Origin: a virus
DNA: 64,000 bases
IMG/VR virus record: IMGVR_UViG_3300044701_003563
Reading direction: 5' to 3' (one strand)
Shown here: positions 1 to 35,200 of the stretch, piece by piece
Numbering within the stretch: position 1 is the first letter of the stretch
Layout: every line of letters starts with the position of its first letter
Position numbers and translations under genes: made by a program
The notes under the pieces: model-generated
The model's database searches: none
Seen by the model: only the letters and a program-made list of their open reading frames with translations
What the model was told of the DNA's origin: nothing

Positions 1-507
1 AATTCCATCCCCCTGAGCATAATATCTTGTTCTAGCATATTCATCTTTAACCAAACCAACTCTAAAGTCAAAACAATTAGTTTGATTTAAAATAATAAAT
101 TCACATGTACTATTATACTTACATTCTTCAAGAAAAGAGTGTATGGTGGCTTCTCCCGACCCATAAAAATTTTTCATTTTAATTGGAGAGGTATCATCTT
201 TTTGTACTATTCCTCTTTCAAAAAGTTTTCCATTTTTATCATTAGGTTTTCTTACTCTAAAGATATTTTGCTGACTTTTATATTCAATTGGCGATTTAAA
301 AAGTTTATAGTCTCTTCCATTTTCATCAATATGTTGCAAAGGTATTGAACAAAAATGAGAGAATGCTTTTTCTCTCATGGAAGAGACCAACATATTATCA
401 GATCTACTTTTAAATCCTATATCATTATGAATGTCCATACAAAATCCAACAAATGAGTCCCAATCACAATTATTTTGAATTAGATCGGCAATTTCTTCAA
501 GATTCAT
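1..507 (-). CDS. Hypothetical protein, possible PD-(D/E)xK nuclease fold; runs off the left window edge
   Basis: Manually translated open frame from ATG at 507 (MNLEEIADLIQNNCDWDSFVGFC...HIDENGRDYKLFKSPIEYKSQ...YAQGDGI) with no stop before position 1. It is absent from the ORF track and has an upstream sigma70 promoter. Confidence 0.8.
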   Translation of the reverse strand, partial: MNLEEIADLIQNNCDWDSFVGFCMDIHNDIGFKSRSDNMLVSSMREKAFSHFCSIPLQHIDENGRDYKLFKSPIEYKSQQNIFRVRKPNDKNGKLFERGIVQKDDTSPIKMKNFYGSGEATIHSFLEECKYNSTCEFIILNQTNCFDFRVGLVKDEYARTRYYAQGDGI

Positions 508-529
508 GGAGTTTGTAGTGGTTGACAGA

Positions 530-558
530 ACTGTAACCGATTATATCTAATTTGTCAA
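530..558 (-). promoter_or_regulatory. Sigma70-type early promoter
   Basis: TTGACA (558-553), 17-nt spacer, TACAGT (535-530), about 23 nt upstream of the ATG at 507. Confidence 0.6.
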
Positions 559-3500
559 TCCTCAATTTGAAAATCTTCTGCCCAGCACTCACCGTATCCA
601 TTTTTCTGGTCATCATATGGATAATGTTGCAATCCTTTACGGTTCCATTCCAGATCAATTCCTTCTCTGGGGAAAGACTTAAATGCTCTAGTAGTAACAT
701 TTTGACTAACTTGATGGGATTGATTCCATCCTCCGCAATTGTCATGTAAATATTTTTCAGGTTCAAGTAACATGATGTTGATTGTTTCATCAAATTTAGA
801 GCAATATCTTGCTCCAATATAAGTTTCATTTCTAACAAAGAAAGGATAATATTTGTGAAGATTTTCTTTTGATATTTTAATTTTATCAGAAAGACCATTA
901 TATTCTAATGGAATATCATACAATTCTTTTACATTACAACTTTTTCCCCAAAAAACATGATCTCTTGGATGAAACAAAAGATTTGGATATATTCCAGCAA
1001 CAAAAATCTGATCTTCAAATTCTCGATTATTCAACAGGTAATTGTACATATTATGCATACTTTCATCATAATATCTTTGATCGGTTCTCATTTTGGCGCA
1101 ATACTCAGTTGTAACTAATTCAAGTCCAGCATGAGCACTTGCTATTTGTAAATTTCTATTGTCAGTTCCTGGAATTGGTTTTTCTATTTCAACAATTTTA
1201 ACTCTATCATGATCAATAGATCCGTCATACTGTCCCTTCCAAGTAGAAAGAATTATATTATTAATAAAATCTAGTTTAAGGTATGAATTTATAATATTTG
1301 GAGTCTCTTCATCAAAATGCCCAGCAAGGACAATATCAATTTTTCCAATATCGTTATTTACACTATTGGTTTCTTCATTTTTATTTTTATTGCAGGAAAG
1401 ATTTTCCAGTATATCTCGATATTGCTCGGTAAAGAAGCACTCAATGTTCTTAAATTTTTCTAGTTCTTTTTCTACTTGAACTTTATATTCTTCTGGAATT
1501 TCATAATTATCTTTAATATCCATCAAAATATTATAAGATTCTTCAATTTTACCCCAATCCCAAGCAGCAAGTGCTTGCTCGTACATAATAGCAAATTTCC
1601 CAGGAAAATGAACATCCGTTTTAAAATTGGGAATAGAATCAAAACTGGAAAAATTTAAAGCTGTTGATGCGTAAATATAACAATCTTGCCAAAATCCTCT
1701 TTTTCTGCAGAAATTACTCAGATGATAATATGCTTCTGGTCTATGTGGTAATAATACCAATGCTTGTTGTAAAATTCCTTTTGCGGTCATATCTCTAGTT
1801 CCTTGCCTATCATAACAATAAGCACCATGAATTAAAGATTCATAAGCATAATGATCGTTTTCAAATCTTTCTGCTGCTCTTAAGAAGAAAGAAAGTGCAG
1901 CCGCATCTTGACCATGAACTTCATACCAAAGTCCAATTTTAAAATTAAGTTCTGGATTTTCAGTATCAGATGAATATTCAGTCAGCAATTCTTCAATATC
2001 CAGAACAATTTGAACATAGTTTTGATTTTTTACATGCACCATTGATTTTTCTCCTAAATTTTCTACTTTTTCAAATGCCCAATCATTTGCTGAAAGTGAT
2101 TTTACTTGTCTATATCCCATATTATACATCAAACTTTGAATTTTTTCAGCATTCTCATCCAAGTGAAGGTATTCAAATTCTACTTTTTTTATCAAATATT
2201 TTTCCCAATTAAAATTAAGTAATATATCCGATTCTAGACCTTCAATGTCCAATAATAACCAATCAATTTCTTTAAGATTGTATCTATCAAATAATTCTTC
2301 CAATGTAATACAGGAAATTTCAAAAGTTTCAATATTTCCATCCGTGAGGGAAGATCCAGGCCAATCAATACATTTTTGAATATGTTCTTTTTTGCAAGAT
2401 GCGATTTCGTAATTTGATTCTTCAGGATGATAATAAAAGGTTAGATGATCATGTTCATGCGATGGACTTTTTATTCCCAAATTTTCTACAAAAATATTAT
2501 TATATTTTTTATAGCATTCTTTTACAGAATCTATATGTATTTTATTTGCATCTACAAATAGTCCAAATTCTATTTCATTTTCTTTATAATTTAAAGACAA
2601 ATACTCATATAAATCATCATACCCTCTATTACAACCAATTTGAACTACTTTTAATTTTTTTAAATTATTTTTCCCAAAAATTAAATTTAAATTATTTTTT
2701 GAATTATTTTTCCACCAATTTAAATTGTAAGTATAGCTATCGAGATGATTTTCCTTAATACCACTATCTATTTCAGAAAACGTGGTCCCTAATTTAAGAT
2801 CTTCTAGAAATAAATTGACTGAATATACTTTACCATGTCCCCAGAATAAAACATTTTCTGGCATTGGATACCATCCAGTATCATAAACTTCCAAATTAAA
2901 TTCATTTTCTGAAACATAATATTGATCAATAATACGTTTTGCGTATTCTTTAGTGAGAATATAAGCAGTTACTGACCAATCGGTTTGCCATCTATTTTCA
3001 AATTTTAAATCTCTTTGTTCATCCCTAATACAATAAAGTTGAACGCAGTCAGCATCATCTGGAAGATTTTCAATGAACTCTTTCCAGGTAAAATCCCAAT
3101 ATTTTAAAGATTCCAAACTTAGATCATCTTCACAAAAGAATCCATATTTTTCATCAGATTCATCATACCATTTTTTAATCATTTTGATATGTGAAACTAC
3201 ACATCCTTTAGTCCCACTATCTAAAATATTAACTTGAGATCCAGTAACTATATCATTAGACTGATCAAATCTTTTAGATATTAATGGATTAAATTCAGTT
3301 ACTCCATTTTTTTTAAATTGTTCTATTAAATTTTTTTGCCTATCTTTACTTTCTTCAAGACTAATAAAATTTACTTTTGGAAAATCTTCAAGTTTTTTTA
3401 TATTATTTACTTTTTTTGCATGAAAATATCTCTCGGATATTTCTTCCAATTTCCATTCATGAATCCTTTTAATATAAAAATTATCAATTTTACCAATGTC

Positions 3501-16896: not shown

Positions 16897-17256
16897 TTAG
16901 TTAAGAGTTTCTAATATACTTCCTACAAATTTTAAATTAGTTCCAGAAACTATTCCCGCATTATTACTTGATGATATTACCAATCTATCTCCACTTTCTA
17001 AAATTAATTTTCCACCAAAAAGATTTAAAGTGTCTGTCCCAGAAACTGGATAACTTTTCATCAATTCAGTATCTACTGGAGATCCAGAAACTATTCTCCT
17101 ATGTAAAACAGTAACATCTTCAGAAACATTGCCAACATTTGTTACCTGCGCTAACAAAAAAACCCCAGTATATCCAATTGGAGCTGTGTAAACTTCTTGT
17201 TGTGTTGTCTGTAAAACTTTTGTTACAGTTTGGAATACATTAAGTGCTAATGCCAT
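16897..17256 (-). CDS. Small virion protein, paralog of 27321..27689
   Basis: MALALNVFQT...YTAPIG...QVTNV...GKLILESGD...SILETLN matches the second copy. Confidence 0.75.
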   Translation of the reverse strand: MALALNVFQTVTKVLQTTQQEVYTAPIGYTGVFLLAQVTNVGNVSEDVTVLHRRIVSGSPVDTELMKSYPVSGTDTLNLFGGKLILESGDRLVISSSNNAGIVSGTNLKFVGSILETLN

Positions 17257-17260
17257 TTCT

Positions 17261-20200
17261 TTAATCTCCTCCTAATGCTAGGATAAATGGTGTCATAGTT
17301 GCAAACAAACTCTTGGAATAAAAATCACCAGTAATAGATCCTGTAGTTTGATTAATAATTACACCGTCACCAATTTTAAAGTTTCCTGCTTGATCTGTGC
17401 TTGTGTAAACAACTAATCCACCATTACGAGCATCAGTTTCATTTTCTGGAATAGGAACTCCTCCCAATCTAGGCAAACATTTATCTATATCAATTCCCGT
17501 ACCAATATATTCAAGTGAATGTCCAGATGCCAATACTCTACTTTGTTTATAAAATGGAACTTCTGTTCCAACACCAACAAAATAAGGAACATTTTCTCCT
17601 ACAGTTATTGTTGTAATTCCTGAAGAAACTTCTGTTGCTTCAGTAATTACATAATAAGTTGGAGTAAGTTCTACTATTGCTGTAGCTGTATTTATTCCAC
17701 TTTGAGGTCCAGTAATTGTAATTTTTGGAGGAATCTTATATCCTCTTCCACTGGATACGAGTTCAATATTTGTTATTGATCCACTTCGTATTTCAGCAAC
17801 CGCTTGAGCTGGAATTCCCCATTCAACCTCTGGAGATTCAAAAGATAATGTTGGAGGTTCCGAATATCCACTTCCTGAATTTAAAATAATTACATTTTTT
17901 ACAGTATAATAAAGATCCTCAAAATAAACTACTTGTCCGTTGAAAGGTCTTATGACATCAATCTTTGCAGTTCCACCAGAAACATAATAGTGTTCAAATG
18001 GAGCAGTGCCAACATATGCTGAAAACACAGTACTTGCTGCAGATACTGATGGAAGAGGAGATATATTCAAATCTGCATTAAAAATTGCAGTTGTAACTAT
18101 TCCAACTAAATTATCAATATAAGATTTAACATTAGAGCAAGAGTTTTCACTATTATTACTCTGAGTAGTTGGATCTTCAATTAAATCAAAATTCTTCTTA
18201 TTCAACTGATTATTAATTGCAAGTTTCATGTAATCTCTTGCAGATTCAAAAGAAGTGATTGTTTGTGGTATTTCATTCTCAATGCTGTTATCGAGAGATC
18301 CATCCAAATTAAAATAAAATTTAGTTGCGTCAATTGTGTTCTCATTAGTATAATCTCTTACATCAAGAGATACATAATCAATTAAATAACCAATATCTCT
18401 ACGACACTTTGATAATCCTAAGGAATATATTCCTTCATTTATTGGTGGCAGTTCAGTAAGATCTGAGGAAACAATTACAGAAGTAACAATTCCAGTAAGA
18501 GTATCAATTGTATTTCTAACATTTGTACAAGATGTTGGATTTTTATTAGAAGTAGTTCCTATTCCTGGATTTGAATCTGTAGTGAGAGTAAGATCTTGTA
18601 TATTTAATTGATTAGTAATTGCTTTCTTTGAAAATTCAGATGCCTGCATGAATACATAAACAGATTCTGATTCTTCCCCGAGCAATGCCGTTGTTGCAGA
18701 ACCAACATTATTAAAATATTGCTTTGTAAACTCAGAAGCATAATAATTTCCGCCAACAAATAAATCAGTTGCGATTGCATCGACAAAATATCTCGTATCC
18801 CTTATGCACTTATTGGTTGTAGAAATTCCCAGGTTCTCATTGAATGTTGATAAGAATGCGGTTGTTCCAACTCCAATTACATTAGTGGATATTGCAACTA
18901 ATGTGTCTATATTATTTTGAACATCAATACAAGAATTTGCATTTCCTGATGGAAAAACTGGAATATCATTACCTGCTCCAAGATATTCTGCAGTTCCAGA
19001 AGATATTCCAATAGTTTTGATATTTAATTGATTTGTAACTGCTCTTTTAAATAGATCTCTTGCGGCATTAAATGCAGTTATTGATTGAGATTCTTCATTA
19101 ATCAATCCATTGGAAATTGGTTGACCAGTTTGAGCATCAAAATACTGTAATGTAAAATCTCTTGAATACTTATTTCCACCTGTAAATAAATCTGTTGCAA
19201 TTGCATCTATAAAATATCCAAGATCTCTCGCACATTTTAATCCTCCAGGAGAACTGGTTGTTCCTATTCCTGCTAAAGTATGAGGTAATACATTAGTACT
19301 ATCTTGAACATAATACCCAAAATTTTGTGGTGGAAGTGACAGTAAATTTCCATTATCAATTACCGAAGTTATGATTCCAACTAAGTTATCAATATTGGAA
19401 CGAACGTTTGCACATGAGTTTGGATTTGTGTTTGATCCAGTTAGTGGGTCTACAGTTATTGTTAAATCACTATAAGCAGCACCGACAAGAGTGTTGGTAA
19501 TAGCATCTTTCATCAACTGCTTTGCTTGTTCAAAAACATAAATGGATTCTGATTCTTCTCCAAGTAATCCATTATTTGTAGGATTTCCATCAGCATCAAA
19601 ATAAAATTTTGCAAATGCTATAGAATAACTATTACCACCTGTGAATATATCTGTCGAAACTGCATCAATGAATAAACCAGTATCTCTCTTACATTTATCC
19701 ATTACAGCAGCAAAGTCAGTCCCAGCAAATCCTGGATTATTGACTGCGGAAGTAAAAGCAATAGAAACTATTACGTCTTTATTATTTTGAATTAAACGAT
19801 ATGAATCTGCATATCTTGATCTTGCATTTGTTTGATTATCGCCTGGAAAATAAAAATCTGAATGAGCAATTGCTACAGCAGCAAGTGACTTATCAATAAT
19901 TTCTTGTCTATTCTTTTGAATTAAACCAGATCCATCATAAAATCTTGATCTCTCATTAGTTTCTGGTTCATCTGGAAAATAGAAGTCTGATGGAAATCCT
20001 ACTGCAAGTTTTGATGCTGCTTTGTCAGCAATTTCTCTTTGATTTTGCTTAATAAGACGATATGAATCATAATATCTAGATCTATCAGTTGTTTGCTCAT
20101 CTCCAGGTAAGTAAAAATCTGGATAATTTAATGCAATAGATGCTAGTGCCTTATCTTGAATTTCTTTCTTATTTGCTTGAATAGAATTATATGCATCATA

Positions 20201-21301
20201 ATATCTTCCAGGAGCAACAATAAACGGTTCAAATATGTACCCATAATTGCCCGTAGGATATTCAAGTTGTGTGATCCCTCCATCAGAACTGCAAGTAAAT
20301 GCAAGTCCCACAATTGAAACTCCAACACCTACTTTAAAATTGTGTTCTTGGTCCGTATATGCAGTTAAAATTCCAGTTGTATGATCATATATTGCATTCG
20401 TGATATTTAAAGTTGGTACAGTTAAATCAATTACAAATTGATCTGTACTTGTACCTCCCTCAACTATTGTTCCAGTGTATTTTTTTGGACCAACACCATC
20501 TGCAACTAAAGCATAATTTCCAAAAGAAGAGTTTGAGTTTGTTAGATCGCAAGCACCACCCGACCCACAAAAAACTGCTATGTCGTCACAAATTGTAAAT
20601 AAAGAAACTAGCTGAGCATACCCTTCATTTGTAATAGAAACTCCTATACCACCTTGATTATATTGAGTATATGAGTCAAGAACCATTGATTTTAAAGGTC
20701 CTATGGCATAAGTACCATCGACCTTCATTCCTATACTATTCGGAATAAAATTTGTGCAGTTTTGAATGTATGGAGATTGATTAAAATAACCTACCTTTTC
20801 TGGGTTAAACGTAAAAATTGCTTTTCCTGGATTTAAAGATCCAGTATATGACATCTCCGCAACATAATTTCCATTTGCAACATAAAATAAATCCTTATCT
20901 GGATTTAAAGGTGATACTGTAACTTCTCTTAAACTGTCTCCAACTACACTAACCTGACTTGGCAGTGCTATTGGATTGTCTTCCAAATAAATACCAGCAC
21001 TTACTTTTATAACCGTTCCAGTTTCTGATGCATCTACTGCAGATTTAATCGTTGCCTTTGCATCTCCAAGTTTTTTTCCAGTATTATTATCGTTTCCGTC
21101 CTTTGTTACGTATAAAATATTGGTTACTGTTGCACCAGCACCAATTCTAACTATATCGGGAACAAATCCTACTCTTTCTCTACGAGCATATAACTCAATA
21201 TCATTAGTATTTAAAGCCAATTCACCTAATTGGAGTTGTCCTAAACTTGGCTTACTCCCTGGTGTTGTTGATCGTTTAATACGAATTATTGGTCTTGTCA
21301 T
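17261..21301 (-). CDS. Large virion fibre protein: beta-helix scaffold with four phycobiliprotein-like helical repeats
   Basis: N-terminal IRIKRS...GELALN fibre anchor; YVTKDGND...TIKSA...SPYIQNCTNF...SNSSFG beta-helix; KCxRD x4; ends TPFILALGGD. Confidence 0.75.
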   Translation of the reverse strand: MTRPIIRIKRSTTPGSKPSLGQLQLGELALNTNDIELYARRERVGFVPDIVRIGAGATVTNILYVTKDGNDNNTGKKLGDAKATIKSAVDASETGTVIKVSAGIYLEDNPIALPSQVSVVGDSLREVTVSPLNPDKDLFYVANGNYVAEMSYTGSLNPGKAIFTFNPEKVGYFNQSPYIQNCTNFIPNSIGMKVDGTYAIGPLKSMVLDSYTQYNQGGIGVSITNEGYAQLVSLFTICDDIAVFCGSGGACDLTNSNSSFGNYALVADGVGPKKYTGTIVEGGTSTDQFVIDLTVPTLNITNAIYDHTTGILTAYTDQEHNFKVGVGVSIVGLAFTCSSDGGITQLEYPTGNYGYIFEPFIVAPGRYYDAYNSIQANKKEIQDKALASIALNYPDFYLPGDEQTTDRSRYYDSYRLIKQNQREIADKAASKLAVGFPSDFYFPDEPETNERSRFYDGSGLIQKNRQEIIDKSLAAVAIAHSDFYFPGDNQTNARSRYADSYRLIQNNKDVIVSIAFTSAVNNPGFAGTDFAAVMDKCKRDTGLFIDAVSTDIFTGGNSYSIAFAKFYFDADGNPTNNGLLGEESESIYVFEQAKQLMKDAITNTLVGAAYSDLTITVDPLTGSNTNPNSCANVRSNIDNLVGIITSVIDNGNLLSLPPQNFGYYVQDSTNVLPHTLAGIGTTSSPGGLKCARDLGYFIDAIATDLFTGGNKYSRDFTLQYFDAQTGQPISNGLINEESQSITAFNAARDLFKRAVTNQLNIKTIGISSGTAEYLGAGNDIPVFPSGNANSCIDVQNNIDTLVAISTNVIGVGTTAFLSTFNENLGISTTNKCIRDTRYFVDAIATDLFVGGNYYASEFTKQYFNNVGSATTALLGEESESVYVFMQASEFSKKAITNQLNIQDLTLTTDSNPGIGTTSNKNPTSCTNVRNTIDTLTGIVTSVIVSSDLTELPPINEGIYSLGLSKCRRDIGYLIDYVSLDVRDYTNENTIDATKFYFNLDGSLDNSIENEIPQTITSFESARDYMKLAINNQLNKKNFDLIEDPTTQSNNSENSCSNVKSYIDNLVGIVTTAIFNADLNISPLPSVSAASTVFSAYVGTAPFEHYYVSGGTAKIDVIRPFNGQVVYFEDLYYTVKNVIILNSGSGYSEPPTLSFESPEVEWGIPAQAVAEIRSGSITNIELVSSGRGYKIPPKITITGPQSGINTATAIVELTPTYYVITEATEVSSGITTITVGENVPYFVGVGTEVPFYKQSRVLASGHSLEYIGTGIDIDKCLPRLGGVPIPENETDARNGGLVVYTSTDQAGNFKIGDGVIINQTTGSITGDFYSKSLFATMTPFILALGGD

Positions 21302-21560: not shown

Positions 21561-22352
21561 TCAATAAAATCCACCGTCTATAGAAATATTTTCCAAATTT
21601 CTTTCTGAATTTGAACAAGAAATAACTTGAGATTCTCCAGAACAATCACTGAGCCATAAACCACTTATTACCATTGGTGCATAAACAACTGATGATGTAT
21701 CTATGATTGGATCTGTTGTTGCAGCACCAAATTCATTTGCTATAATGGAAACATTTGATGCTATTCCAATTCTACCAGTACTATCATCCCAAAAAATTCC
21801 AGATCTATATCTAGTATTTGATTTATAATAATTAAATAATACGCCCAAATCCCATGTGGTATTTGATGGGGAAATAGTTCCCAATCCTACATTAAAAATT
21901 CTTGCTTGAGTGTCAAAAATTTCTGTATTAAACTTTGAAGATGTTCCACCTACAGAAATATCTCCGTCTACTTCAATTTCTCCAGATAAAACTGGATCAA
22001 TAATTCTATTTGTCCAAAATAAATTTCCATCTCCATCAGTGGAAAGAATATAATCATTAATAGGAGCTGGTGGTAAATAATATCTAAAAGTAGACGGGAC
22101 ATTAGAGGGTGCTCTTAACCCAATAAAGTTTGCTCCGTTATCAGTATTTTCATATAAGTTTATTCCACCACCAGATCCAGAAGATTCCCTTCTCCAGTAT
22201 CTATCGGAACCAAAAAACCTATTTCCAAACAGAGTTCCATCAAATCCAATATAAAAGTCTCTAGTATCTGTAGTTACTCCAGGTTCTCCTAATGCCAATC
22301 CAGGAAGATCTGAATAAGCACCTCTTTTAAATTGAATTACTGGCAGTGGCAT
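21561..22352 (-). CDS. Short fibre-like virion protein
   Basis: N-terminal IQFKRG...LALGEPGVTTDT anchor-type motif; LPPAP..YILSTDGDGNLFW; ends IDGGFY. Confidence 0.65.
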   Translation of the reverse strand: MPLPVIQFKRGAYSDLPGLALGEPGVTTDTRDFYIGFDGTLFGNRFFGSDRYWRRESSGSGGGINLYENTDNGANFIGLRAPSNVPSTFRYYLPPAPINDYILSTDGDGNLFWTNRIIDPVLSGEIEVDGDISVGGTSSKFNTEIFDTQARIFNVGLGTISPSNTTWDLGVLFNYYKSNTRYRSGIFWDDSTGRIGIASNVSIIANEFGAATTDPIIDTSSVVYAPMVISGLWLSDCSGESQVISCSNSERNLENISIDGGFY

Positions 22353-22354
22353 AA

Positions 22355-22696
22355 TTAAAATCCTCCAGCATCGGTATCAATTCTATCGTCGAGATCTTGA
22401 TCCATACGATCGAGGAAGGAAGTTGCATAACCAACAAATCCAGGTTGTATTGTTTCTGTTTCTGCTGCAGCAGTGAACACTTTATCTGGATTAACAGCTT
22501 TCCATTTTCCAGTTGCAGCATTATACATTAAAACATATTGATCATTTGTATCTTCACCATCAAAATCTACTAAATCTGAAAATCTTGCTGGCACTCCTAC
22601 ACCCCCCGTTTGAACATTAACTTTAAATTTTTGTTCTGGTCCTATTTTGATGTTAAAACTTTGAGAATTTGTTTTTGTTACTTTAAAATCTGTCAT
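22355..22696 (-). CDS. Hypothetical virion protein
   Basis: SDLVDFD...YVLMYNAATGKWKA fibre motif; ends DAGGF. Confidence 0.6.
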   Translation of the reverse strand: MTDFKVTKTNSQSFNIKIGPEQKFKVNVQTGGVGVPARFSDLVDFDGEDTNDQYVLMYNAATGKWKAVNPDKVFTAAAETETIQPGFVGYATSFLDRMDQDLDDRIDTDAGGF

Positions 22697-23034
22697 AGTG
22701 ATGTACTATCGTTTACTATGATTGATCCTTCAACGACCTTAACAGTATAACCAGTATTTTGATCGACAAGAAAAACATCAAAATAATTTCTACCAGAAGA
22801 TAAATCAGCGGTATCAGTTCTCCCCATCGAGATTTTTACTGATGGAGAATTTACATTTCCAATTACTTCCGTGGTAAATGATTTTGATCTTATTGCTGTT
22901 GGATGCTTTCTAATTTTGGAAACTGCGTCATAATTAACTAAAGAAACAGGACCATTATCTGGTCCAGACACATTAAATGTAGCACTAAAATCAGTGCCTT
23001 TTTCCAAACTTATATTTACAACAGCAACTGACAT
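22693..23034 (-). CDS. Hypothetical virion protein (BppU-N/Ig-like)
   Basis: KGTDFSATF...GRNYFDV...VVEGSI. Confidence 0.55.
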   Translation of the reverse strand: MSVAVVNISLEKGTDFSATFNVSGPDNGPVSLVNYDAVSKIRKHPTAIRSKSFTTEVIGNVNSPSVKISMGRTDTADLSSGRNYFDVFLVDQNTGYTVKVVEGSIIVNDSTSL

Positions 23035-27320: not shown

Positions 27321-27689
27321 TTACTGTTTTGCAGTTTCTAATACACTTAAAACGGACTCAAGTTTCCAATTTTCCGATGCGGAAATGAAAAGAACATCAC
27401 CAGTTTCCAAAGCAAGTCTTCCATCACCAACAATATTATATCCATCATTTGGAGGAATAATTACTCCATTTGATAATTTAAAGCTGACAACTCCAGTCAC
27501 TGGATCTGGATCCCTTGCATGTAAAGCAGTTATACTTGATATTCCAACAGAATTTCCCGTAGAAACATTGGTAATTTGCCAATTAATAATAATACTAGCA
27601 ACACCAATAGGACAAGTATAAATTCCAACATTATTTGTTGTAACTCTTGTTCTAATTGTTCTAAATTTATTAAGTGCAATTGCTGCCAT
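27321..27689 (-). CDS. Small virion protein, paralog of 16897..17256
   Basis: MAAIALNKFRT...YTCPIG...QITNV...GRLALETGD...SVLETAKQ. Confidence 0.75.
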   Translation of the reverse strand: MAAIALNKFRTIRTRVTTNNVGIYTCPIGVASIIINWQITNVSTGNSVGISSITALHARDPDPVTGVVSFKLSNGVIIPPNDGYNIVGDGRLALETGDVLFISASENWKLESVLSVLETAKQ

Positions 27690-27691
27690 TT

Positions 27692-30600
27692 TTACTTACC
27701 TAATGCGATGATGAGTGGTGTTACTGTTTGCAATAGACTTTGACTGAATGCCCTTCCACTAATTGTTCCAGTTAACTGATTAATGGTCAAATCAGTTCCA
27801 ATTCTAAAGTTACCTGCTTGATTTGTACTTGTAAATACAACTTGTCCTCCATTCAATTTCACAACTTCATTTTCGGCAATTGTCACACCCCCAAGTGCAG
27901 GTTTTGCTTTATTAATGTCTGTTCCTGCTCCAACCCATTCAAAAGAAATTGTTGTTGCAATTTGCAAACTTAGTCTAGAAAAATATACAGTAGTATCTTC
28001 TTCTATTGTATTATTTAGATTCTGCGTAAGAACAACTGTTGATATTCCAGTAATTCCATTATTCCACGGAATAGTGGCAGACTCTACAAAATAATATATA
28101 GGTTCCATTTCAGCTTGAGCTATTGCTTGTGTTCCCCCAGCAAATGGGGGATCAATAGTTACTATAGGAACATTTCTATACTGACTTCCTTCACTAATAA
28201 CATCAATTGAAGTTATTGCTCCCGTTACAGGATCTACGTTTACACTTCCTTCAGCACGAATTCCTCTTGCATTTTCGGGAGGAAGTTCAATAGAAACATT
28301 TGGGGGAACTAAAGCACTGTATCCACTTCCACCATCAATAACATTTAATCTCTTAACACTCTTGAACAATTCACCAAAATAAAGTGCTTGTCCATCATAT
28401 GGTCTATATGTACCTACCCCAGCAATAATTACTCTATCTTGTTCAACTTCTGCCCTTTCATCAACAAAACCTGTCATGTGATAAATTGATTTTGTATTTG
28501 CATCACCAACACCACTGGAATATAATCCATAATTTCCAAAAGAAGCATTAGAGTTTGTAAGGTCACACTGTCCACCAGATCCAGTGAAAATTGCAATATC
28601 ATCACAGATAGTAAAGATAGAAACTAACTGAGAATAACCGCCATTAGTAATAGAAACGCCTATGCCACCTTGATTATATTGAGTATATGAGTCAACACTC
28701 ATTGTTCCAGTTACGCCAATATCATCTTCATATCCAGGTTCTGCATCAAATCCATCAACTTTCATTCCTATACTGTTACCGACAAAATTAGTGCAATTTC
28801 TGATATAAGGTCCTTGTGTAATTGGCCCAACACCTGGGGAATATGGAGGAATTATATAACCATCTCCAATATAAGTATGAGGTATTGTTGAAATTCCAAC
28901 ATCTAAAGTGAAAGTTGAACTCTTTCTTTGTGTTACATTTCTAACTGTTCCGCCAGAAACATATGTGTGTGGGAAAGGTCCTACCCCAGTATTAATTGTG
29001 AGATCATTTCCATTAACTCCATAAACTTTAAATACATAACCAAATTTTCCAGATGGATAAATTGGTGTTGTTTGAGCACCACTGGCACAAGTAAATTCAA
29101 AATCTCTTATTTCTATTAAATCATCAACAGAAACTGAAAAATTTGGATCAGTTACTGTAATTGTTGTTACTCCTGTTGTATGAGTATATTGACAATTTGT
29201 GGCATTATATAATCTATCGGAAATAATATCTACAACTTTAAAATCATTTCCATAAAACTTTCCGCCGAATTCAGTTTGAATAGATTCTGATGGGAAAGTT
29301 GCTGTAATCGTTGGACCCCCACTGCTGCAAGAATAAGTAAGATCACGAATAGTTACAATATCTTCTCTTGAAACATAAGCTCCTGGGGCGGTAATTGTAA
29401 CAATTCCAGAAGTATGGTCATATGGAGCACTGGTTATGTTAAACGTCCTATCAATTACATAACCATCTCTTTCATAAGTATGAGGTAATGTAGAAACTCC
29501 AACATTTAATGTATAGTCATCCCCATTTACATCATCAATATAAAATCTATATCCATAAAATCCTGAAGGAAATACTGATTCGGAAACTGGACCTCCAGAA
29601 GAACATGAAAATACTAAATCCTTTATTTCTATTCTGTCGCCCTTTCTTGCATTTAATCCAGGTACGGTCACTATAACTTTACCAAATACCTCGTCATAAG
29701 TAGCACCAGATACAAACTTAACATTACTAAATGGGATACCTTCCCCTCTATTTCCTGGGAATGACGTAGTAATTCCTGAAGTTTGTCCATATCCAATTAT
29801 TGTAGTTACAACACCTACCAAATTTCTAATTGTAGAAACTACATTTTTGCAACCAGCAATAGATTCGTTTACTCCTTGGGGGAAAAATTCCTCACAACCC
29901 AGAGAAGGATCTTTTTGAATAGCAGCATCTTTTACTTGAGTAAAAGATTTAGTAAATTGTGATCTTCTTTCAATTGTTCCAGATGAATAGGGCCATTCTG
30001 TAATCGTGCTCCATCCTACAGATCCAGCTTCCGCACTACCATCTCCAGAATGATAATGTGCAATTGTGGATGGACCTACCAAAACTTCAAATGTGTTTGG
30101 ATTTGCAGAGAAAAATGCATTATCTTGTGGAAGTCTAAATACGCAGAAAATATTTCCATAATATTTTCCACCATATTCAGTTTGTGCTTCCTCTGATGGA
30201 AAATATGCAGTTGAAAAACCAGGACCACTTCCGCAACCAAATATTAAATTCTCAAAATAAATTGGATCTCCTGGTCTTATATCAGCATCTTCTACTGTAA
30301 CATCATTCCCATTTTGATCTTGAATGAAAACCGTTGCAAATCCGCATTCATTATCATACAAAACATTACTAACAACAAGTTTTCCATATGTAGAAATTCC
30401 TGCTGCTCTAGAACTTAAATATGAAAAATTGTTATTATTAATAATTGATCTTGCAATTAAAAATGAATGTTCTAAGGTTGCTACTGTTTGCTCGACCTCT
30501 TGTGGATTTTTAAGAATTTGTGGAATTAAATTCCAGTCATCATCATAATAAGCACTTCCTGCGTTTATTGCCTCACTATTTCCACCTCTAGTTAAATCAT

Positions 30601-32197
30601 GTACTATCCTTTTCCATACATCCTTAATATCATCTCTGCAATCTTGTTCTACATCAAGATTAACTCCAAAAGTTGTAGTAATCCCAGAAAGATATGTTAA
30701 TCCATTGGAACTTATGTATTGTTGATATAACGTATTTGTAACAATACCAATATTGGTTTTAACGTCATCTATGGTAAGTGTGCAATTTCCAGGAAGTGGA
30801 TCGTAACTTAAGTCCTGATATACCCCTCTAGATCCATATGCATTGCTATTTGCAAATGTCGTAGTTCCAAATCCAACTGCTGCTGGGGATGTTGCCCAAT
30901 CAATGTTATTAACGACATGAGTTGCTATTCCAGCAGCAAAACTTAAAGCATCTACAGTAGCTTTTAAAATACTATTGTTATTAGTATCATTGCCAGTAAT
31001 GTGAAGAAGAGCACCAGCATCACTGAAATATGTTCTAGCAGCACCTATTGATTTTTTATTACTTCCAGATTTTAAATCATTAACTAAAGATTTTAATATA
31101 TCTTTAACATCATCTTCACAATTTACTGGGGCAGTTGGAACGCCATTGACCGAAATAACGAATGGTTGACCATTACTTCCAAGATATCCAAGGGTTCCTA
31201 CATTTCTAGCAGTTAAAAATCCTACAGTTTCTGCAGCAATATAATCAATATTTGCTTCTATTTTTTTAGCAGCATCTTGTGCAAGATGATCTCCAGCATA
31301 ACCACTATATCCACTATGCAGCCAAGCAACAGATTCATTTGCAAGAAAGTCTAGATTAAATCTAAGCATTCTTGCGGCATCAAAATATCGATCTTCCTTT
31401 GTGCCCAAAAGTTTTTCAAGAGATACCATTGCAGCTCCATCTCTTGCGTTTTTTCCTATAAAACTTAAATCAGTTATATGGCAACCATTGTTGACATAAA
31501 ACATATCCTTTTCAGGAAATTTTGGTGTTATTACAACGTTTCTTAGTTCAGTTCCTTCTACAGCAACAAGTTCATTTAAAACTATTGGATTTTCTTCAAC
31601 ATAAATCCCAGGATATACTTTAATAGTATCTCTTGTTAAAGCAACAGATGCTGCACTTTTAATAGTTGCCTTCGCATCTGCTTCACTCAGCCCACTATTT
31701 GCATCATCACCATTTGTAGTAACAAATACTGTTTTACCTACTGGCGCAAAAGATTGAATTGTTACAATACCTTTTCCAGGTACTTGCGTTTCATCAATAC
31801 TAATTCCAGGTCCTGCAACAATTTGAGTTACAATACCAACAAGTCCTGATCCATCACCAGCATATTTTCCAACAGTAAGAGTATCTCCAACTGTAAGATC
31901 ATTAGAAATTAAGGCGCTATTTGATACTGATAGGTTTCCAATAGTTGCGCCAGTTAAACTTGCAGATCCTGCAGAAAGAGATCCAAATAAACCAGAAGAT
32001 GAATCAACATTTCCAGCAGATAACGTTTGCGAAACCGTTAAATTTGGATTTATTATTGCATCGCCTAAAACATGAAAAGATGCTAAAGGTTGAGTTAAAC
32101 CTATTCCAACTCTTTGAGTATCAATGTCAGCATAAATTAAATTGGTATTTACCTCAAGACCATTTCTAACAACAAAGTTTTTATTGACTGAGGCCAT
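27692..32197 (-). CDS. Large virion protein, paralog of 17261..21301, with two phycobiliprotein-like repeats
   Basis: KNFVVRNGLEV N-terminus; same beta-helix motifs (GPYIRNCTNF, DSYTQYNQGGIGVSITN); CEDD and CRDD repeats; ends TPLIIALGK. Confidence 0.75.
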   Translation of the reverse strand: MASVNKNFVVRNGLEVNTNLIYADIDTQRVGIGLTQPLASFHVLGDAIINPNLTVSQTLSAGNVDSSSGLFGSLSAGSASLTGATIGNLSVSNSALISNDLTVGDTLTVGKYAGDGSGLVGIVTQIVAGPGISIDETQVPGKGIVTIQSFAPVGKTVFVTTNGDDANSGLSEADAKATIKSAASVALTRDTIKVYPGIYVEENPIVLNELVAVEGTELRNVVITPKFPEKDMFYVNNGCHITDLSFIGKNARDGAAMVSLEKLLGTKEDRYFDAARMLRFNLDFLANESVAWLHSGYSGYAGDHLAQDAAKKIEANIDYIAAETVGFLTARNVGTLGYLGSNGQPFVISVNGVPTAPVNCEDDVKDILKSLVNDLKSGSNKKSIGAARTYFSDAGALLHITGNDTNNNSILKATVDALSFAAGIATHVVNNIDWATSPAAVGFGTTTFANSNAYGSRGVYQDLSYDPLPGNCTLTIDDVKTNIGIVTNTLYQQYISSNGLTYLSGITTTFGVNLDVEQDCRDDIKDVWKRIVHDLTRGGNSEAINAGSAYYDDDWNLIPQILKNPQEVEQTVATLEHSFLIARSIINNNNFSYLSSRAAGISTYGKLVVSNVLYDNECGFATVFIQDQNGNDVTVEDADIRPGDPIYFENLIFGCGSGPGFSTAYFPSEEAQTEYGGKYYGNIFCVFRLPQDNAFFSANPNTFEVLVGPSTIAHYHSGDGSAEAGSVGWSTITEWPYSSGTIERRSQFTKSFTQVKDAAIQKDPSLGCEEFFPQGVNESIAGCKNVVSTIRNLVGVVTTIIGYGQTSGITTSFPGNRGEGIPFSNVKFVSGATYDEVFGKVIVTVPGLNARKGDRIEIKDLVFSCSSGGPVSESVFPSGFYGYRFYIDDVNGDDYTLNVGVSTLPHTYERDGYVIDRTFNITSAPYDHTSGIVTITAPGAYVSREDIVTIRDLTYSCSSGGPTITATFPSESIQTEFGGKFYGNDFKVVDIISDRLYNATNCQYTHTTGVTTITVTDPNFSVSVDDLIEIRDFEFTCASGAQTTPIYPSGKFGYVFKVYGVNGNDLTINTGVGPFPHTYVSGGTVRNVTQRKSSTFTLDVGISTIPHTYIGDGYIIPPYSPGVGPITQGPYIRNCTNFVGNSIGMKVDGFDAEPGYEDDIGVTGTMSVDSYTQYNQGGIGVSITNGGYSQLVSIFTICDDIAIFTGSGGQCDLTNSNASFGNYGLYSSGVGDANTKSIYHMTGFVDERAEVEQDRVIIAGVGTYRPYDGQALYFGELFKSVKRLNVIDGGSGYSALVPPNVSIELPPENARGIRAEGSVNVDPVTGAITSIDVISEGSQYRNVPIVTIDPPFAGGTQAIAQAEMEPIYYFVESATIPWNNGITGISTVVLTQNLNNTIEEDTTVYFSRLSLQIATTISFEWVGAGTDINKAKPALGGVTIAENEVVKLNGGQVVFTSTNQAGNFRIGTDLTINQLTGTISGRAFSQSLLQTVTPLIIALGK

Positions 32198-32243: not shown

Positions 32244-35200
32244 TTATGGATTTGATTTTTGCTGAGTTGCGTCTGATATAACTTTAGCAATTAATTTTGC
32301 CAATCCAACTCTGTTATCGACTGGATCTTTTCCACCTGGAATCAACTTATATGCTTCCCCCTCAATACTTAAAAGTGACCTAGTTACGTTTTGTATATCT
32401 CCCTCACCAGTTCCAGTTGATGGTGCATTTCCATCTACATCAACGGAAGCATAAATTACTGGATATCCCACCCTAGACCAAGTATTTGAATTTCCATACA
32501 ATTCTGAACGATTTGCAGTTGTCCATGGAGATAAAGCAATGCTTGTGTTTGGAACATATGCTTCAGCAAAATAATCAATTAATTTTTTGCCATTAGGCAT
32601 AATTGTTGATGGAGTTAACCCGATTCCTGTGGAAACATCCTCTAATTGGAATGAAAAAGTTGTGGCATTTCTTACTCTATAAGAAGTATATGCTATTCCA
32701 GTTCCCTCTTCAACGTATGTAGTTGTATTAAATAATCTATTTAATCTAATAGTGACTATTTCCCCGTTTACAAATGGATGATTATCAGATCTAACGGTCA
32801 AAACTGATTTATCATTTATGATTATTGCTTTATACCCAGAAGGAAGATCATCGGAAATAGAAGCAGTTATTGTGTTATCCGTTTGAATAACTATTTGATC
32901 TATTCTACTTCCAAAAGCAAATCCAGGATTATTAGTTGCAAATGGAGGGATGAATTGTTGTGTACCTTCGTCAACTAAATCAAAACCACTATCGGTAGAA
33001 GAATTAGTATTAGCACGAATAACATTCAATGATTTATTAATTAATCTATAATCTAAATATGGAACACCTAAATTTGGATTACTTCTTCTTGAGGTTATAA
33101 AATATAAGTTGTCATTGGCCACAATATTTGAAAATACGGATTGATCAAATGCATCATTATCAAATATAATTGTAGCAATCCCACTCTTTCCACCCGTATC
33201 ATATAATATAGATGCTTCAAAGTTTGTTGCTGCCAAATCTCTATGTCCTATAGAAGAAGTGCTATAGAAAAATAGTTCTTGAATCTCTGCTTTCTTCTCA
33301 ATGTCTCCATAAGTATAAACTTTATCAATTTTAACAACGCCACCTTTATTTGCTTCTGCCAATGTAAGCATATCATGAGTTTGACTTAACAACCCTTGAT
33401 TTGGTGGTGGCCCAGAATCATTAACATTATCCCACACTTTTTCTAATCCAAATGGCCTAGATCTTCTAGAAATTCCTCCATCCAAATAAATTGTGGATAA
33501 TCCAGAGTTTACCAATGGGGCACTATCTCTTGATATTCCTCTAAATGTAAATCCAGTTCCAGAAATACTTCCACCAGAAATTACTTGTTCTATATAAATT
33601 AAAAGATCATTTCTAAGAGTATTTGTAGTTCCATCTCCAGATTGTCCCCCAAGAAGATTTCCAGGTATTCTAATAACATCATTTACATTATATAAAGATC
33701 CACCACTTAATAACTCAACTGTAGAATAAGTTGTAACCCCAGCAGTTCTTATTCCCCCTCTAACAATTCTGAATTGAGATCCAGAACCTGTTCCAGTTAT
33801 AATAGAAGCTGTTTTTGCAGATTCATAATCGAGACTTGAATCTGGAACAGAGATTGTGGGATTAGATGTTTGTCTTAAAATTGATAAGTTTGTGGATTGA
33901 ATTCCTCCATTTACATCAACAGATCCAATTTTTACTAATGCATCATTACGAGTTCCAGTTGTTCCACCAAGATTTGACCCAGGAATTAGATAAAGTTCAT
34001 TTGTTTTATAATTTGAACCAGTGGAAACTATTGATTGAATTGTATAACTAGAAGTTATGCCAGTTGCATTCCTACGAATTATTAAAGAAGCAGCGGCATT
34101 ACTATTTCCATTTGAAAGACCTATTCTTTGATTATAAAGTAAAGTTCCAGAAATCTTATAATCTGGCCTACCATTCAATGTAATTGGAGATGGATATGGG
34201 CCATTCATTCTAAATACTGTAGAAGTTGGTGCATTTAATACTGTCCTATTCCCATTAAATCCAGAAAGTGAAGAATTAGTAATTGTAACTCCATCTCCTT
34301 GATCCAATAAATGTTGCTGATATACAAAAGATCCATCGAAAGAAAATGTTGACGTAACTATTGGACCTCTATCAAAAATGACATAATATCCTTCAGTATC
34401 TATAGTTGTATAAGAAATAGATCCAGAAGGATTTTGTGTTCCAGAAAGTGCAAAATTTTCAGTGTCTAATATTTCTGAAATAAAGTAAGTTCCTCCAAAA
34501 TCACTCTGCAAAGTAATATTTCCAGTTATAATATCCACCTGAGTTGTACCGACATTTGCAGCAGTAAATCCATGCCCTCCATTTACACGAACAATTCTAT
34601 CAGAATTTGCTAATCCAACTACTCCATTTACATCTCCATTTGGAGAATAATCATTTGGATTTATTGTTGATGGTGATATTAATTCTAAACTATTTGAAGA
34701 AGTATATTTTGCATTATAATCTCCATCAAAATTATCAGTTCCAGTGATATTAATTGATATAATATCCCCAAATATTAATGGAAGATCAAATGTTAAATTT
34801 GAAAATTCTATAGAATTAAATCTAATTATTGCTGGAGAATTTCTAAGTCCAGCAGTATAACCAAGACCAGAATTATTCTCAACAGTAGAATAATTAGAAG
34901 GATTGATTGCTTCTTGAAGACCTACTCTTGTTAATCCTCCAGTATCAGTCCTCCAAGCAATTGTATATGGACCAGGAAGAGATAATTGTTGGGAAGATGC
35001 TGTATCAGTTCCATCATTATTTACAATATCAATTTGAGAACCAACTGCAAAAGAACTTGGAATTATATTTGAAAATGTTGCTATTGCTGGATAATTTTGA
35101 TAACCAACCAATCCAACAGTGGATGTTATTGTAAAGTTTGTAGAAGCAGTACTTACGGTATTACTAATATTAAATAAATTTGCGTCTACTGTAGTAACAG

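What the first reader, a model, noticed from the sequence alone, without database searches (positions are those of the whole stretch)
18040..20410. Matryoshka domain nesting: N1-N2-N3-N4-C4-C3-C2-C1
Seen: four tandem ~43-aa N-terminal helices (RYYDAYN, RYYDSYR, RFYDGSG, RYADSYR, the first three ending DFY(L/F)P) come first, then four ~135-150-aa C-terminal halves. The whole block splits a small beta domain (ITNAIYDHTTG...GYIFEP / VFSAYVGTAPFEHYYVSGG) that is seen intact in the 27692 paralog. Inference: each domain copy was inserted into the same loop of the previous one. The chain therefore goes out and returns, forming a rigid side-arm whose length depends on copy number. Profile searches would miss all but the innermost copy, which may be why these domains go unannotated.
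Basis: partly seen in the sequence, partly recalled or inferred. Interest (0 to 1): 0.8.

Follow-up and report, generated by a model that had tools for sequence, protein, structure and literature searches.

The report
Self-nested phycobiliprotein-like domains in cyanophage fibre
A tail-fibre-like protein of a T4-like cyanophage carries four copies of a pigment-protein-type (globin-fold) domain inserted one inside the next like Russian dolls, an unusual way to build a projecting arm whose length changes in matched steps, and every copy keeps the residues that hold pigment in real phycobiliproteins.

Summary
Gene 17261-21301 (minus strand, 1346 aa) has four ~43-aa N units and then four ~130-150-aa C units. 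The whole block sits in a loop of a small beta domain that is uninterrupted in the paralog at 27692-32197.

The repeated domain is phycobiliprotein-like (globin fold). N units are helices A-B. C units are helices E-H and begin with the Cys-x-Arg-Asp bilin-site motif.

In the AlphaFold2 models, N4+C1 superposes on phycobiliprotein beta chains (Z 15-17). N1+C4 (full model) and N2+C3 (model without C4) each superpose on whole globin chains. N3+C2 follows by elimination.

Among 121 close homologs, 114 have balanced-bracket architectures with two to six levels. More distant relatives reach ten levels, or form plain tandem arrays of up to about 34 complete domains.

Shown: the architecture. Inferred: how it arose, that the arm is rigid, and what it does. 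Bilin binding is untested.

No paper describing this was found. The closest published case is the six-level nested Si3 insertion of cyanobacterial RNA polymerase. Earlier notes of this scan report the same architecture in at least 22 other genomes.

The parts
17261..21301 (-). Tail-fibre-like gene (P0001, 1346 aa). It has a conserved N-terminal region, a beta-helix-like part, the split beta domain with the nested array, and a conserved C-terminal part.
   Evidence: ORF and translation. PHROG tail-fibre families 17885, 4527 and 5342. Homologs are annotated as tail fibre proteins in Synechococcus and Prochlorococcus myophages.
20207..20434 (-). N-terminal part of the host beta domain (residues 290-365).
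   Evidence: Aligns to P0002 988-1059, E 6e-12. Strands at model residues 11-72.
20078..20206 (-). N1 (residues 366-408): helices A-B of the outermost domain. Pairs with C4.
   Evidence: Two helices at model 77-103. Globin chains align over model 73..788.
19946..20077 (-). N2 (residues 409-452): helices A-B of level 2. Pairs with C3.
   Evidence: Unit HMM. 1ith_B aligns over 40..579 of the truncated model.
19817..19945 (-). N3 (residues 453-495): helices A-B of level 3. Pairs with C2 by elimination.
   Evidence: Unit HMM. Covariation at predicted contact columns is highest with C2 in two of three settings.
19712..19816 (-). N4 (residues 496-530): helices A-B of the innermost domain, contiguous with C1.
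   Evidence: Phycobiliprotein chains align over model 204..360, Z 15-17.
19253..19711 (-). C1 (residues 531-683): helices E-H of the innermost domain. Cys537 lies in CKRD; the second Cys is at 630.
18827..19252 (-). C2 (residues 684-825): helices E-H of level 3. Cys690 lies in CARD; the second Cys is at 791.
   Evidence: HMMER aligns this site to the Cys84 site of phycocyanin alpha. Both cysteines are invariant in 77 homologs.
18425..18826 (-). C3 (residues 826-959): helices E-H of level 2. Cys832 lies in CIRD; the second Cys is at 925.
18038..18424 (-). C4 (residues 960-1088): helices E-H of the outermost domain. Cys966 lies in CRRD; the second Cys is at 1055.
17963..18037 (-). Returning strand of the host beta domain (residues 1089-1113).
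   Evidence: Aligns to P0002 1071-1086. Strand at model 801-807. Model range 4..811 aligns to a contiguous stretch of 4hiz_A.
29765..31390 (-). Paralog P0002 residues about 270-811: a two-level nest of the same domain (CxDD instead of CxRD). Its outer C half appears to be interrupted again by a beta-domain copy.
   Evidence: Domain HMM hits at 270-300, 307-495, 494-593 and 753-811. A beta-domain copy lies at 603-723.

Best explanation
The block is a four-level, self-nested array of phycobiliprotein-like (globin-fold) domains. It is inserted into a loop of a small beta domain in a cyanomyovirus tail-fibre-like protein.

Each domain is cut at the same place, the loop between helix B and helix E, just before the Cys-x-Arg-Asp motif. 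The next copy sits in that cut. The chain therefore writes helices A-B four times on the way out (N1-N4). It turns at the contiguous innermost domain (N4+C1) and writes helices E-H four times on the way back (C1-C4). The pairing is N1-C4, N2-C3, N3-C2 and N4-C1. Both ends of the insert meet at the host beta domain.

Most likely function (inferred): a projecting arm on the fibre, whose length is set in whole-domain steps by the number of levels, with the sequence-distinct innermost domain at its tip.

The near-universal Cys-x-Arg-Asp motif suggests that each domain also binds a ligand, possibly a bilin. This is not shown.
For: Units and order.

Domain identity:
- The only PDB sequence hits are phycobiliproteins, aligned at the Cys84 site.
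- Close homologs pass the Pfam PF00502 cut-off (25.8-36.3 bits against 22.2). In five of six the best stretch covers the innermost N plus the start of C1, profile positions 26-108.
- The AF2 model has pLDDT 82 and pTM 0.81.
- Phycobiliprotein beta chains align with Z 15-17, rmsd 2-3 A and 132-157 residues on model 176/204..360, which is N4+C1.

Outer pairs in the models:
- 1it2_A (Z 6.7, 132 of 146 aligned), 3wct_C (Z 6.1, 129 of 150) and 1ith_B (Z 5.8, 132 of 141) span model 73..788, which is N1+C4.
- In the model without C4, 1ith_B moves to 40..579, which is N2+C3 (Z 6.0, 133 of 141).
- These Z values equal those the same globins give on the contiguous inner domain.

Same cut point at every level: N hits end at domain-HMM columns 29-36 and C-only hits start at columns 21-37, mostly 32-37.

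Copy number: 114 of 121 close homologs are balanced-bracket words. The counts are N4C4 x77, N3C3+N2C2 x17, N3C3 x8, N5C5 x7, N6C6 x3 and N4C4+N3C3 x2.

Independent sequence statistics:
- A coupling model trained on contiguous domains from other proteins ranks the nested pairing 1st of 24 (four levels), 1st of 6 (three levels) and 1st of 120 (five levels). It is the best pairing in 47 of 79 single proteins, where about 3 are expected by chance.
- Within-family covariation at predicted contact columns, minus background, ranks nesting 1st, 1st and 2nd of 24 (ranks computed by hand from the printed matrices).

Insertion into the beta domain.
Against: - No coordinates or contact map could be read. 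Pairing rests on the first and last aligned residues of structural alignments to predicted models.
- The globin matches to the outer domains have only Z about 6.
- N3-C2 rests on elimination plus weak covariation.
- The coupling-model signal disappears when training uses only tandem-type proteins, and the positive control N4-C1 is then lost too. It may therefore partly reflect unit types rather than contacts.
- Similarity trees of middle units agree with nesting in only 6 of 10 deeper nests.
- P0035 has four N and five C units.
- Rigidity, arm length and function were not measured.
Confidence: 0.78

Rival explanations
1. The order of the sequence is nested, but in the assembled (probably oligomeric) fibre the halves complement between chains by domain swapping. 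N units of one chain would complete C units of a neighbouring chain.
For: Fibre proteins are usually trimers (general knowledge). Only monomer models were made. The complex predictor was closed.
Against: The monomer models are confident (pTM 0.81 and 0.85) and close every domain within one chain. The short native-like B-E loop joins N4 and C1 in one chain. Both ends of the insert return to one beta domain.
Confidence: 0.08
2. The units are not nested. The N helices form a separate helical stalk, or they pair with C units in parallel (N1-C1 ... N4-C4) or crossed order.
For: Identity patterns between unit classes correlate better under parallel mapping at four levels, because N4 and C4 are both outliers. 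Trees of middle units favour parallel mapping in 4 of 10 cases.
Against: N4+C1 is one contiguous phycobiliprotein-like domain, which excludes parallel order. N1+C4 and N2+C3 superpose on whole globins. Nesting scores better than N1-C1 plus N4-C4 in 79 of 79 proteins, and better than the crossed middle in 62 of 79.
Confidence: 0.04
3. The main role of the array is not spacing. Each domain would be a bilin-binding, pigment-carrying or light-sensing module, and nesting would only be a way of packing several of them onto the fibre.
For: Cys-x-Arg-Asp is kept in 96-100% of the 716 complete contiguous domain copies, including relatives at about 30% identity: Cys 97%, Arg 94%, Asp 99% in tandem-type proteins. 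That cysteine has no conserved partner in most of the family, so a disulfide does not explain it. By alignment ranges, the second cysteine of this subfamily falls where beta-Cys153/155 lies (inference). ApcE's bilin-binding domain is among the best structural matches (Z 13.5-14.1).
Against: There is no chromophore evidence of any kind. The 128-kb record (61% complete) holds no CpeT, bilin reductase or haem oxygenase gene. The paralog has CxDD instead of CxRD. A shared fold and motif do not show function.
Confidence: 0.3
4. History rather than structure: the array did not grow by inserting whole domains into loops. It grew by separate tandem expansions (unequal crossing-over) of the N array and the C array, with selection restoring equal numbers.
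For: The extra units in five- and six-level relatives look like hybrids or period-2 repeats of the middle units in both arrays. P0035 (N4C5) looks like an unbalanced intermediate.
Against: The same unit orders also arise if a closed inner nest is copied into the innermost loop. In P0008 the most similar N pair (N2/N4, 84%) matches the most similar C pair (C3/C5, 79%) only under nested pairing, as expected if partners are copied together.
Confidence: 0.4

Closest known systems
Si3 insertion of cyanobacterial RNA polymerase beta' (RpoC2): recursively nested sandwich-barrel hybrid motifs
   Same: One small domain type is inserted repeatedly into a loop of its own kind, so the chain runs out and back. 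A 2026 survey of 2.7 million domains describes it as a six-level nested architecture and its example of greatest complexity (PMC13114784). The structure is in PMC10895346 (listed, not read).
   Different: The fold here is helical (globin type), not a beta barrel. The host is a phage fibre protein, not a polymerase. The number of levels varies between close relatives (two to six) and reaches ten in relative P0123.
Phycobiliprotein subunits (Pfam PF00502: phycocyanin, phycoerythrin, allophycocyanin)
   Same: The globin-type fold matches (Z 15-17). The Cys-x-Arg-Asp motif at the start of helix E aligns on the Cys84 bilin site. A second cysteine lies just before helix H. Homologs pass the Pfam cut-off.
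   Different: There is no separate X-Y hairpin. The domains are part of a virion protein and are self-nested or in long tandem arrays. No evidence exists for a chromophore or for alpha-beta or trimer assembly. P0001 itself scores 20.9 bits, below the 22.2 cut-off.
ApcE (core-membrane linker) alpha-allophycocyanin-like domain with its PB-loop
   Same: A phycobiliprotein-type domain that tolerates an extra loop of 50-70 residues inside the domain (PMC11789067). It is a strong structural match to the innermost domain (4xxi_A Z 13.5-14.1). That the PB-loop lies between helices B and E is my recollection and was not checked here.
   Different: The ApcE insert is an unstructured loop, not another copy of the domain, and there is a single level.
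Neighbouring giant protein of the same phage (window about 34125-38630) with a deeply nested beta-barrel array
   Different: It has a different fold and a different depth. I did not re-test it.

Membership tests
Phycobiliprotein family (Pfam PF00502) | Sequence match to the family profile above the curated cut-off | tested here: inconclusive
   P0001 scores 20.9 bits against a cut-off of 22.2. Six close homologs score 25.8-36.3 bits. A profile of 77 homologs finds only phycobiliproteins in the PDB, at E 0.016-0.73.
Phycobiliprotein family (Pfam PF00502) | Globin-type fold with helices A, B, E, F, G and H | tested here: met
   In the AF2 model, beta chains align with Z 15-17, rmsd 1.9-3.9 A and 131-157 residues. 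The result holds without the Foldseek prefilter.
Phycobiliprotein family (Pfam PF00502) | Bilin-site residues Cys84, Arg86 and Asp87 at the start of helix E | tested here: met
   CKRD, CARD, CIRD and CRRD occur at residues 537, 690, 832 and 966 and align on the phycocyanin alpha site. The cysteines and aspartates are invariant in 77 homologs, and the arginines are invariant or at least 90% conserved. The motif is 94-100% conserved in 716 domain copies.
Phycobiliprotein family (Pfam PF00502) | Covalently bound bilin chromophore | not testable with these tools
   This needs expression with bilin synthesis genes and lyases, or virion mass spectrometry.
Phycobiliprotein family (Pfam PF00502) | N-terminal X-Y helical hairpin and alpha-beta / trimer assembly | tested here: inconclusive
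   Each unit has only helices A-B before the cut. In some alignments a helix of the preceding N unit lies where X/Y lie (model range starts at 175-179).
Recursively self-nested domain arrays (type case: RpoC2 Si3) | Discontinuous domains whose two parts flank another copy of the same domain, at three or more levels | tested here: met
   The order is N1-N4 then C1-C4. N4+C1, N1+C4 and N2+C3 each form one globin-like unit in the models.
Recursively self-nested domain arrays (type case: RpoC2 Si3) | Same insertion point at every level | tested here: met
   N hits end at domain-HMM columns 29-36 and C-only hits begin at columns 21-37, mostly 32-37.
Recursively self-nested domain arrays (type case: RpoC2 Si3) | Halves gained and lost in matched pairs among relatives | tested here: met
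   114 of 121 close homologs are balanced at two to six levels. The distant set is noisy: 24 of 56 nest-type proteins are balanced at the strict threshold, and about 13 more have one surplus C together with a sub-threshold N-like hit just upstream.
T4-like cyanophage tail-fibre / baseplate-associated fibre proteins | Match to phage tail-fibre families and a fibre-gene neighbourhood | tested here: met
   PHROG 17885 scores E 9e-182. 397 phage records hold a match, and all but one are cyanophage or marine-virus records. The neighbours are collagen-like fibres, an LtfC-like assembly protein and an Mtd_N-like protein.

The most novel reading that the evidence does not exclude
Each nested domain carries a covalently attached bilin at its conserved Cys-x-Arg-Asp site, and in this subfamily a second one at the cysteine before helix H. 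The virion fibre would then bear a stack of four to eight pigments per chain and act as a light-absorbing or light-sensing arm. This would give a direct structural reason for cyanophage-encoded bilin synthesis and lyase genes, and for light-dependent adsorption. Both of those links come from my own knowledge and from leads in earlier scan notes, and were not tested here.
Probability: 0.3. Interest if true: 0.95.

Novelty: new variant of a known kind. Interest (0 to 1): 0.7.

Why it matters
- Protein architecture: recursive self-insertion is regarded as a rare extreme, and six levels in RpoC2 is the published showcase. Here the same principle is used with a helical fold in phage fibres. Depth varies between close relatives and reaches ten in a relative. 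That makes it a natural system for studying how such proteins fold and evolve.
- Annotation: it explains why these large fibre regions stay unannotated. Profiles see only the contiguous innermost copy.
- Phage biology: the domain is a relative of the host's light-harvesting proteins and keeps the pigment-site residues in hundreds of diverged copies. Whether cyanophage particles carry pigment is therefore now directly testable.

Tried and rejected
- Reading a contact map: model coordinates are not exposed, so alignment ranges were used instead.
- Deletion test: a model without C4 kept N1 almost as confident as before (block means 87/88/84/67 against 81/94/94/80). pLDDT therefore did not reveal an orphan. 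The same model later gave the N2+C3 globin match.
- Foldseek on the whole 811-residue model: no hit at E <= 0.001. Phycoerythrin beta chains appeared only at E about 0.07-0.15, although with probability 1.0.
- Mapping unit types between three-, four-, five- and six-level proteins: the outcome is symmetric under nested and parallel pairing, so it does not discriminate.
- Mantel-type comparison of the N and C identity matrices of middle units: mixed, with nested better in 6 of 10.
- Coupling model trained on tandem-type proteins only: no power, and the positive control failed. Scrambled training gave scattered ranks.
- Bilin genes in the phage record: none found for PF06206, PF05996 or PF01126. 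The record is only 61% complete, so this says little.
- Literature searches for phycobiliprotein-like domains or nested domains in cyanophage fibres: nothing relevant.
- Names for distant giant relatives: none given by the sources.
Full report
**Gene and context.** The finding lies in one ORF, 17261-21301 on the minus strand (P0001, 1346 aa). PHROG tail-fibre families match it strongly (phrog_17885, E 9e-182). tblastn finds relatives in 397 phage records, and all but one are cyanophage or marine-virus records. Most are annotated as tail fibre, short tail fibre or baseplate wedge proteins. The neighbours are fibre-type genes:
- two Gly-X-Gln collagen-like proteins;
- an LtfC-like assembly protein;
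- an Mtd_N-like protein;
- a second large paralog, P0002, at 27692-32197.

The record is a 128-kb virus contig judged 61% complete.

**Observation.**
- N units start at residues 366, 409, 453 and 496.
- C units carry CxRD at residues 537, 690, 832 and 966.
- C1 vs C4, the most distant C pair, is 43% identical with E 1e-21.
- N1 vs N4 gives E 2e-06.
- The flanks of the block are the two parts of a beta domain that is uninterrupted in P0002. There the parts are 11 residues apart; here they are about 735 apart.

**What the domain is.** The only PDB sequence hits of P0001 and of N4+C1 are phycocyanin alpha chains. They align exactly at the bilin-binding Cys84 site, with motif K-C-A-R-D. A profile of 77 homologs again finds only phycobiliproteins, at E 0.016-0.73. 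P0001 is just under the Pfam PF00502 cut-off (20.9 vs 22.2 bits). Six close homologs pass it. In five of them the best stretch runs from the innermost N unit into C1, at profile positions 26-108.

An AlphaFold2 model of residues 290-1100, built with 76 homologs, has pLDDT 82 and pTM 0.81. Each N unit is two helices and each C unit is four. Phycobiliprotein beta chains superpose on model 176/204..360, which is N4+C1, with Z 15-17, rmsd 2-3 A and 132-157 residues. A search without the Foldseek prefilter agrees and adds the ApcE bilin-binding domain (Z 13.5). So N units are helices A-B and C units are helices E-H of a phycobiliprotein-type globin fold.

**Is it nested?** Coordinates are not exposed, so I used the aligned ranges of structural alignments.
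- In the full model, three haemoglobin chains align best not to the contiguous inner domain but across model 73/74..785-788. They are 1it2_A (Z 6.7, 132 of 146 residues), 3wct_C (Z 6.1, 129 of 150) and 1ith_B (Z 5.8, 132 of 141).
- A compact 140-150-residue globin aligned at 3.7-4.0 A can span that range only if N1 (model 77-103) packs with C4 (model 672-786) as helices A-B pack with E-H.
- I then modelled N1-N4 plus C1-C3, leaving out C4 (pLDDT 82, pTM 0.85). In that model 1ith_B aligns across 40..579, which is N2+C3 (Z 6.0, 133 of 141).
- The Z values are modest, but they equal what the same globins give on the contiguous inner domain. For example, 1it2_A gives Z 6.6 at 128..287.
- With N4-C1, N1-C4 and N2-C3 placed, N3-C2 follows by elimination.
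- The split beta domain (model 4..811) superposes on a contiguous 67-residue stretch of phi92 endosialidase, so the insert's ends meet.
- Caveats: these are predicted models, and a range gives only the first and last aligned residue.

**Copy number.** HMMs of the two unit types were run on 121 proteins: the window's two paralogs and 119 homologs from the search. The architectures are:

| Architecture | Proteins |
|---|---|
| N4C4 | 77 |
| N3C3+N2C2 | 17 |
| N3C3 | 8 |
| N5C5 | 7 |
| N6C6 | 3 |
| N4C4+N3C3 | 2 |

In total 114 of 121 are balanced-bracket words. Among the exceptions:
- P0033, P0036, P0115 and P0026 are truncated.
- The paralog P0002 has diverged N units that the narrow HMM misses. 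A later domain HMM reads it as a two-level nest.
- P0062 is a branched case.
- P0035 appears to be truly N4C5, and its fifth C unit lacks the cysteine.

Every level is cut at the same point. N hits end at domain-HMM columns 29-36, and C-only hits begin at columns 21-37, mostly 32-37.

**Wider family.** N4+C1 finds 580 cluster representatives (clusters at 50% identity). Two designs occur:
- plain tandem arrays of complete contiguous domains, up to about 34 per protein in giants of 2000-6400 aa;
- nested arrays, up to ten levels with a fork (P0123, N10C7N2C5).

A tandem-type protein hits only cyanophage and marine-virus records in the phage collection. The distant set is noisy: 24 of 56 nest-type proteins are balanced at the strict threshold. 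About 13 more have one surplus C together with a sub-threshold N-like hit just upstream. That would fit an outer domain hosting two inserts, but it is not secure.

**Independent sequence tests of pairing.** A mean-field coupling model was trained on 573 contiguous domains from the distant set, with no close-family sequences.
- Its top N-C couplings form an antiparallel helix-helix ladder (columns 17/42-43, 13/47, 10/50, 7/50).
- When close-family units are scored in all pairings, nesting ranks 1st of 24 (four levels), 1st of 6 (three levels) and 1st of 120 (five levels).
- Nesting is the single best pairing in 47 of 79 proteins, where about 3 are expected by chance. It beats the crossed middle in 62 of 79.
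- Caveat: with tandem-type training only, the signal and the positive control both vanish, and scrambled training gives scattered ranks. Part of the signal may reflect unit types rather than contacts.
- Within-family mutual information at predicted contact columns, minus background, is highest on or near the anti-diagonal. From the printed matrices, I computed by hand that nesting ranks 1st, 1st and 2nd of 24 for three settings.
- Similarity trees of the middle units are mixed: 6 of 10 favour nesting. In P0008 the closest N pair (N2/N4, 84%) corresponds to the closest C pair (C3/C5, 79%) only under nested pairing.

**How it probably works.**
- Shown: the chain goes out through four A-B hairpins, turns at a contiguous domain and returns through four E-H bundles. 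The number of levels changes in matched steps among relatives.
- Inferred: this forms an arm projecting from the beta domain, with a length set by the number of levels and the sequence-distinct innermost domain at the tip. For example, the innermost pair has Trp at column 21 with Leu at column 97, where the outer pairs have Leu and Tyr. Rigidity is suggested only by the high pTM.
- History is open. The unit types in five- and six-level relatives fit either copying a closed inner nest into the innermost loop, or two matched array expansions. P0035 may be an unbalanced intermediate.

**Pigment question.** Cys-x-Arg-Asp is kept in 96-100% of the 716 complete contiguous domain copies, including tandem-type relatives at about 30% identity. 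The second cysteine is invariant in the close family. It is present in only 29% of the domains from distant nest-bearing proteins and is not among the common residues in tandem-type ones. A disulfide therefore cannot explain the first cysteine. By range arithmetic on the C-phycocyanin beta alignments (model 204..360 to chain 33..172), the second cysteine (model 341) falls at about chain residue 153. To my knowledge that is the second bilin site of beta subunits, so this is an inference. No bilin synthesis or lyase gene is in the incomplete record. Bilin binding is plausible but untested.

**Comparison with what is known.** The closest published architecture is the Si3 insertion of cyanobacterial RpoC2. 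A 2026 survey presents it as a six-level recursive insertion and the most complex case among 2.7 million domains (PMC13114784). ApcE shows that a phycobiliprotein-type domain tolerates a 50-70-residue loop insert (PMC11789067). I found no paper describing phycobiliprotein-like or nested domains in cyanophage fibres.

Earlier notes of this scan report the same architecture in at least 22 other genomes, and a nested beta-barrel array in the neighbouring gene. I treated those as leads. One of their claims, co-occurrence with CpeT, could not be confirmed on this incomplete record.

**Verdict.** It is a new variant of a known kind (recursive domain nesting), built from a host-related pigment-protein fold.

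Noticed in passing
window 29765-31390 (P0002 residues about 270-811): The paralog's two-level nest seems to carry a further insertion. The outer C half matches the domain HMM at 494-593 (columns 15-109) and again at 753-811 (columns 106-160). A copy of the small beta domain lies between them (603-723). The beta domain and the globin domain would then host each other in the two paralogs. Its motif is CxDD rather than CxRD.
   Followed up: partly
relative P0123 (2927 aa, metagenomic): The architecture is N10 C7 N2 C5, a balanced word ten levels deep in which the three outer levels hold a seven-level and a two-level nest side by side. This is deeper than the six levels published for RpoC2 Si3.
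   Followed up: partly
relative P0035 (1920 aa): It has four N units but five C units. The last C unit has lost the cysteine (K-F-H-E-D in place of K-C-x-R-D). This may be an unbalanced intermediate of array expansion, or a decaying unit.
   Followed up: partly
relatives P0130, P0136, P0140, P0143 and others: These giant proteins of 2000-6400 aa hold 15-34 complete, contiguous copies of the same domain in plain tandem. Cys-x-Arg-Asp is kept in nearly every copy, but the second cysteine is not. A tandem-type member (P0184) hits only cyanophage and marine-virus records.
   Followed up: partly
window 16897-17256 and 27321-27689 (minus strand): Two small paralogous proteins of 119 and 122 aa (phrog_1276, unknown function). 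Each lies directly after one of the two large fibre paralogs and before a collagen-like fibre gene, forming a repeated three-gene module.
   Followed up: no
window 21561-22352 and 22693-23034 (minus strand): A 263-aa protein has a Major tropism determinant N-terminal domain (PF18454, 26.7 bits, just over the cut-off). A 113-aa protein is an LtfC-like / L-shaped tail fibre assembly protein. Both lie between the two fibre modules.
   Followed up: no
relatives such as P0128, P0134, P0142, P0162, P0170: A recurrent pattern, N1C1 followed by N(k)C(k+1), has a sub-threshold N-like hit just upstream. It would be balanced if an outer domain hosts a single domain and a nest side by side, as a forked arm.
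   Followed up: partly
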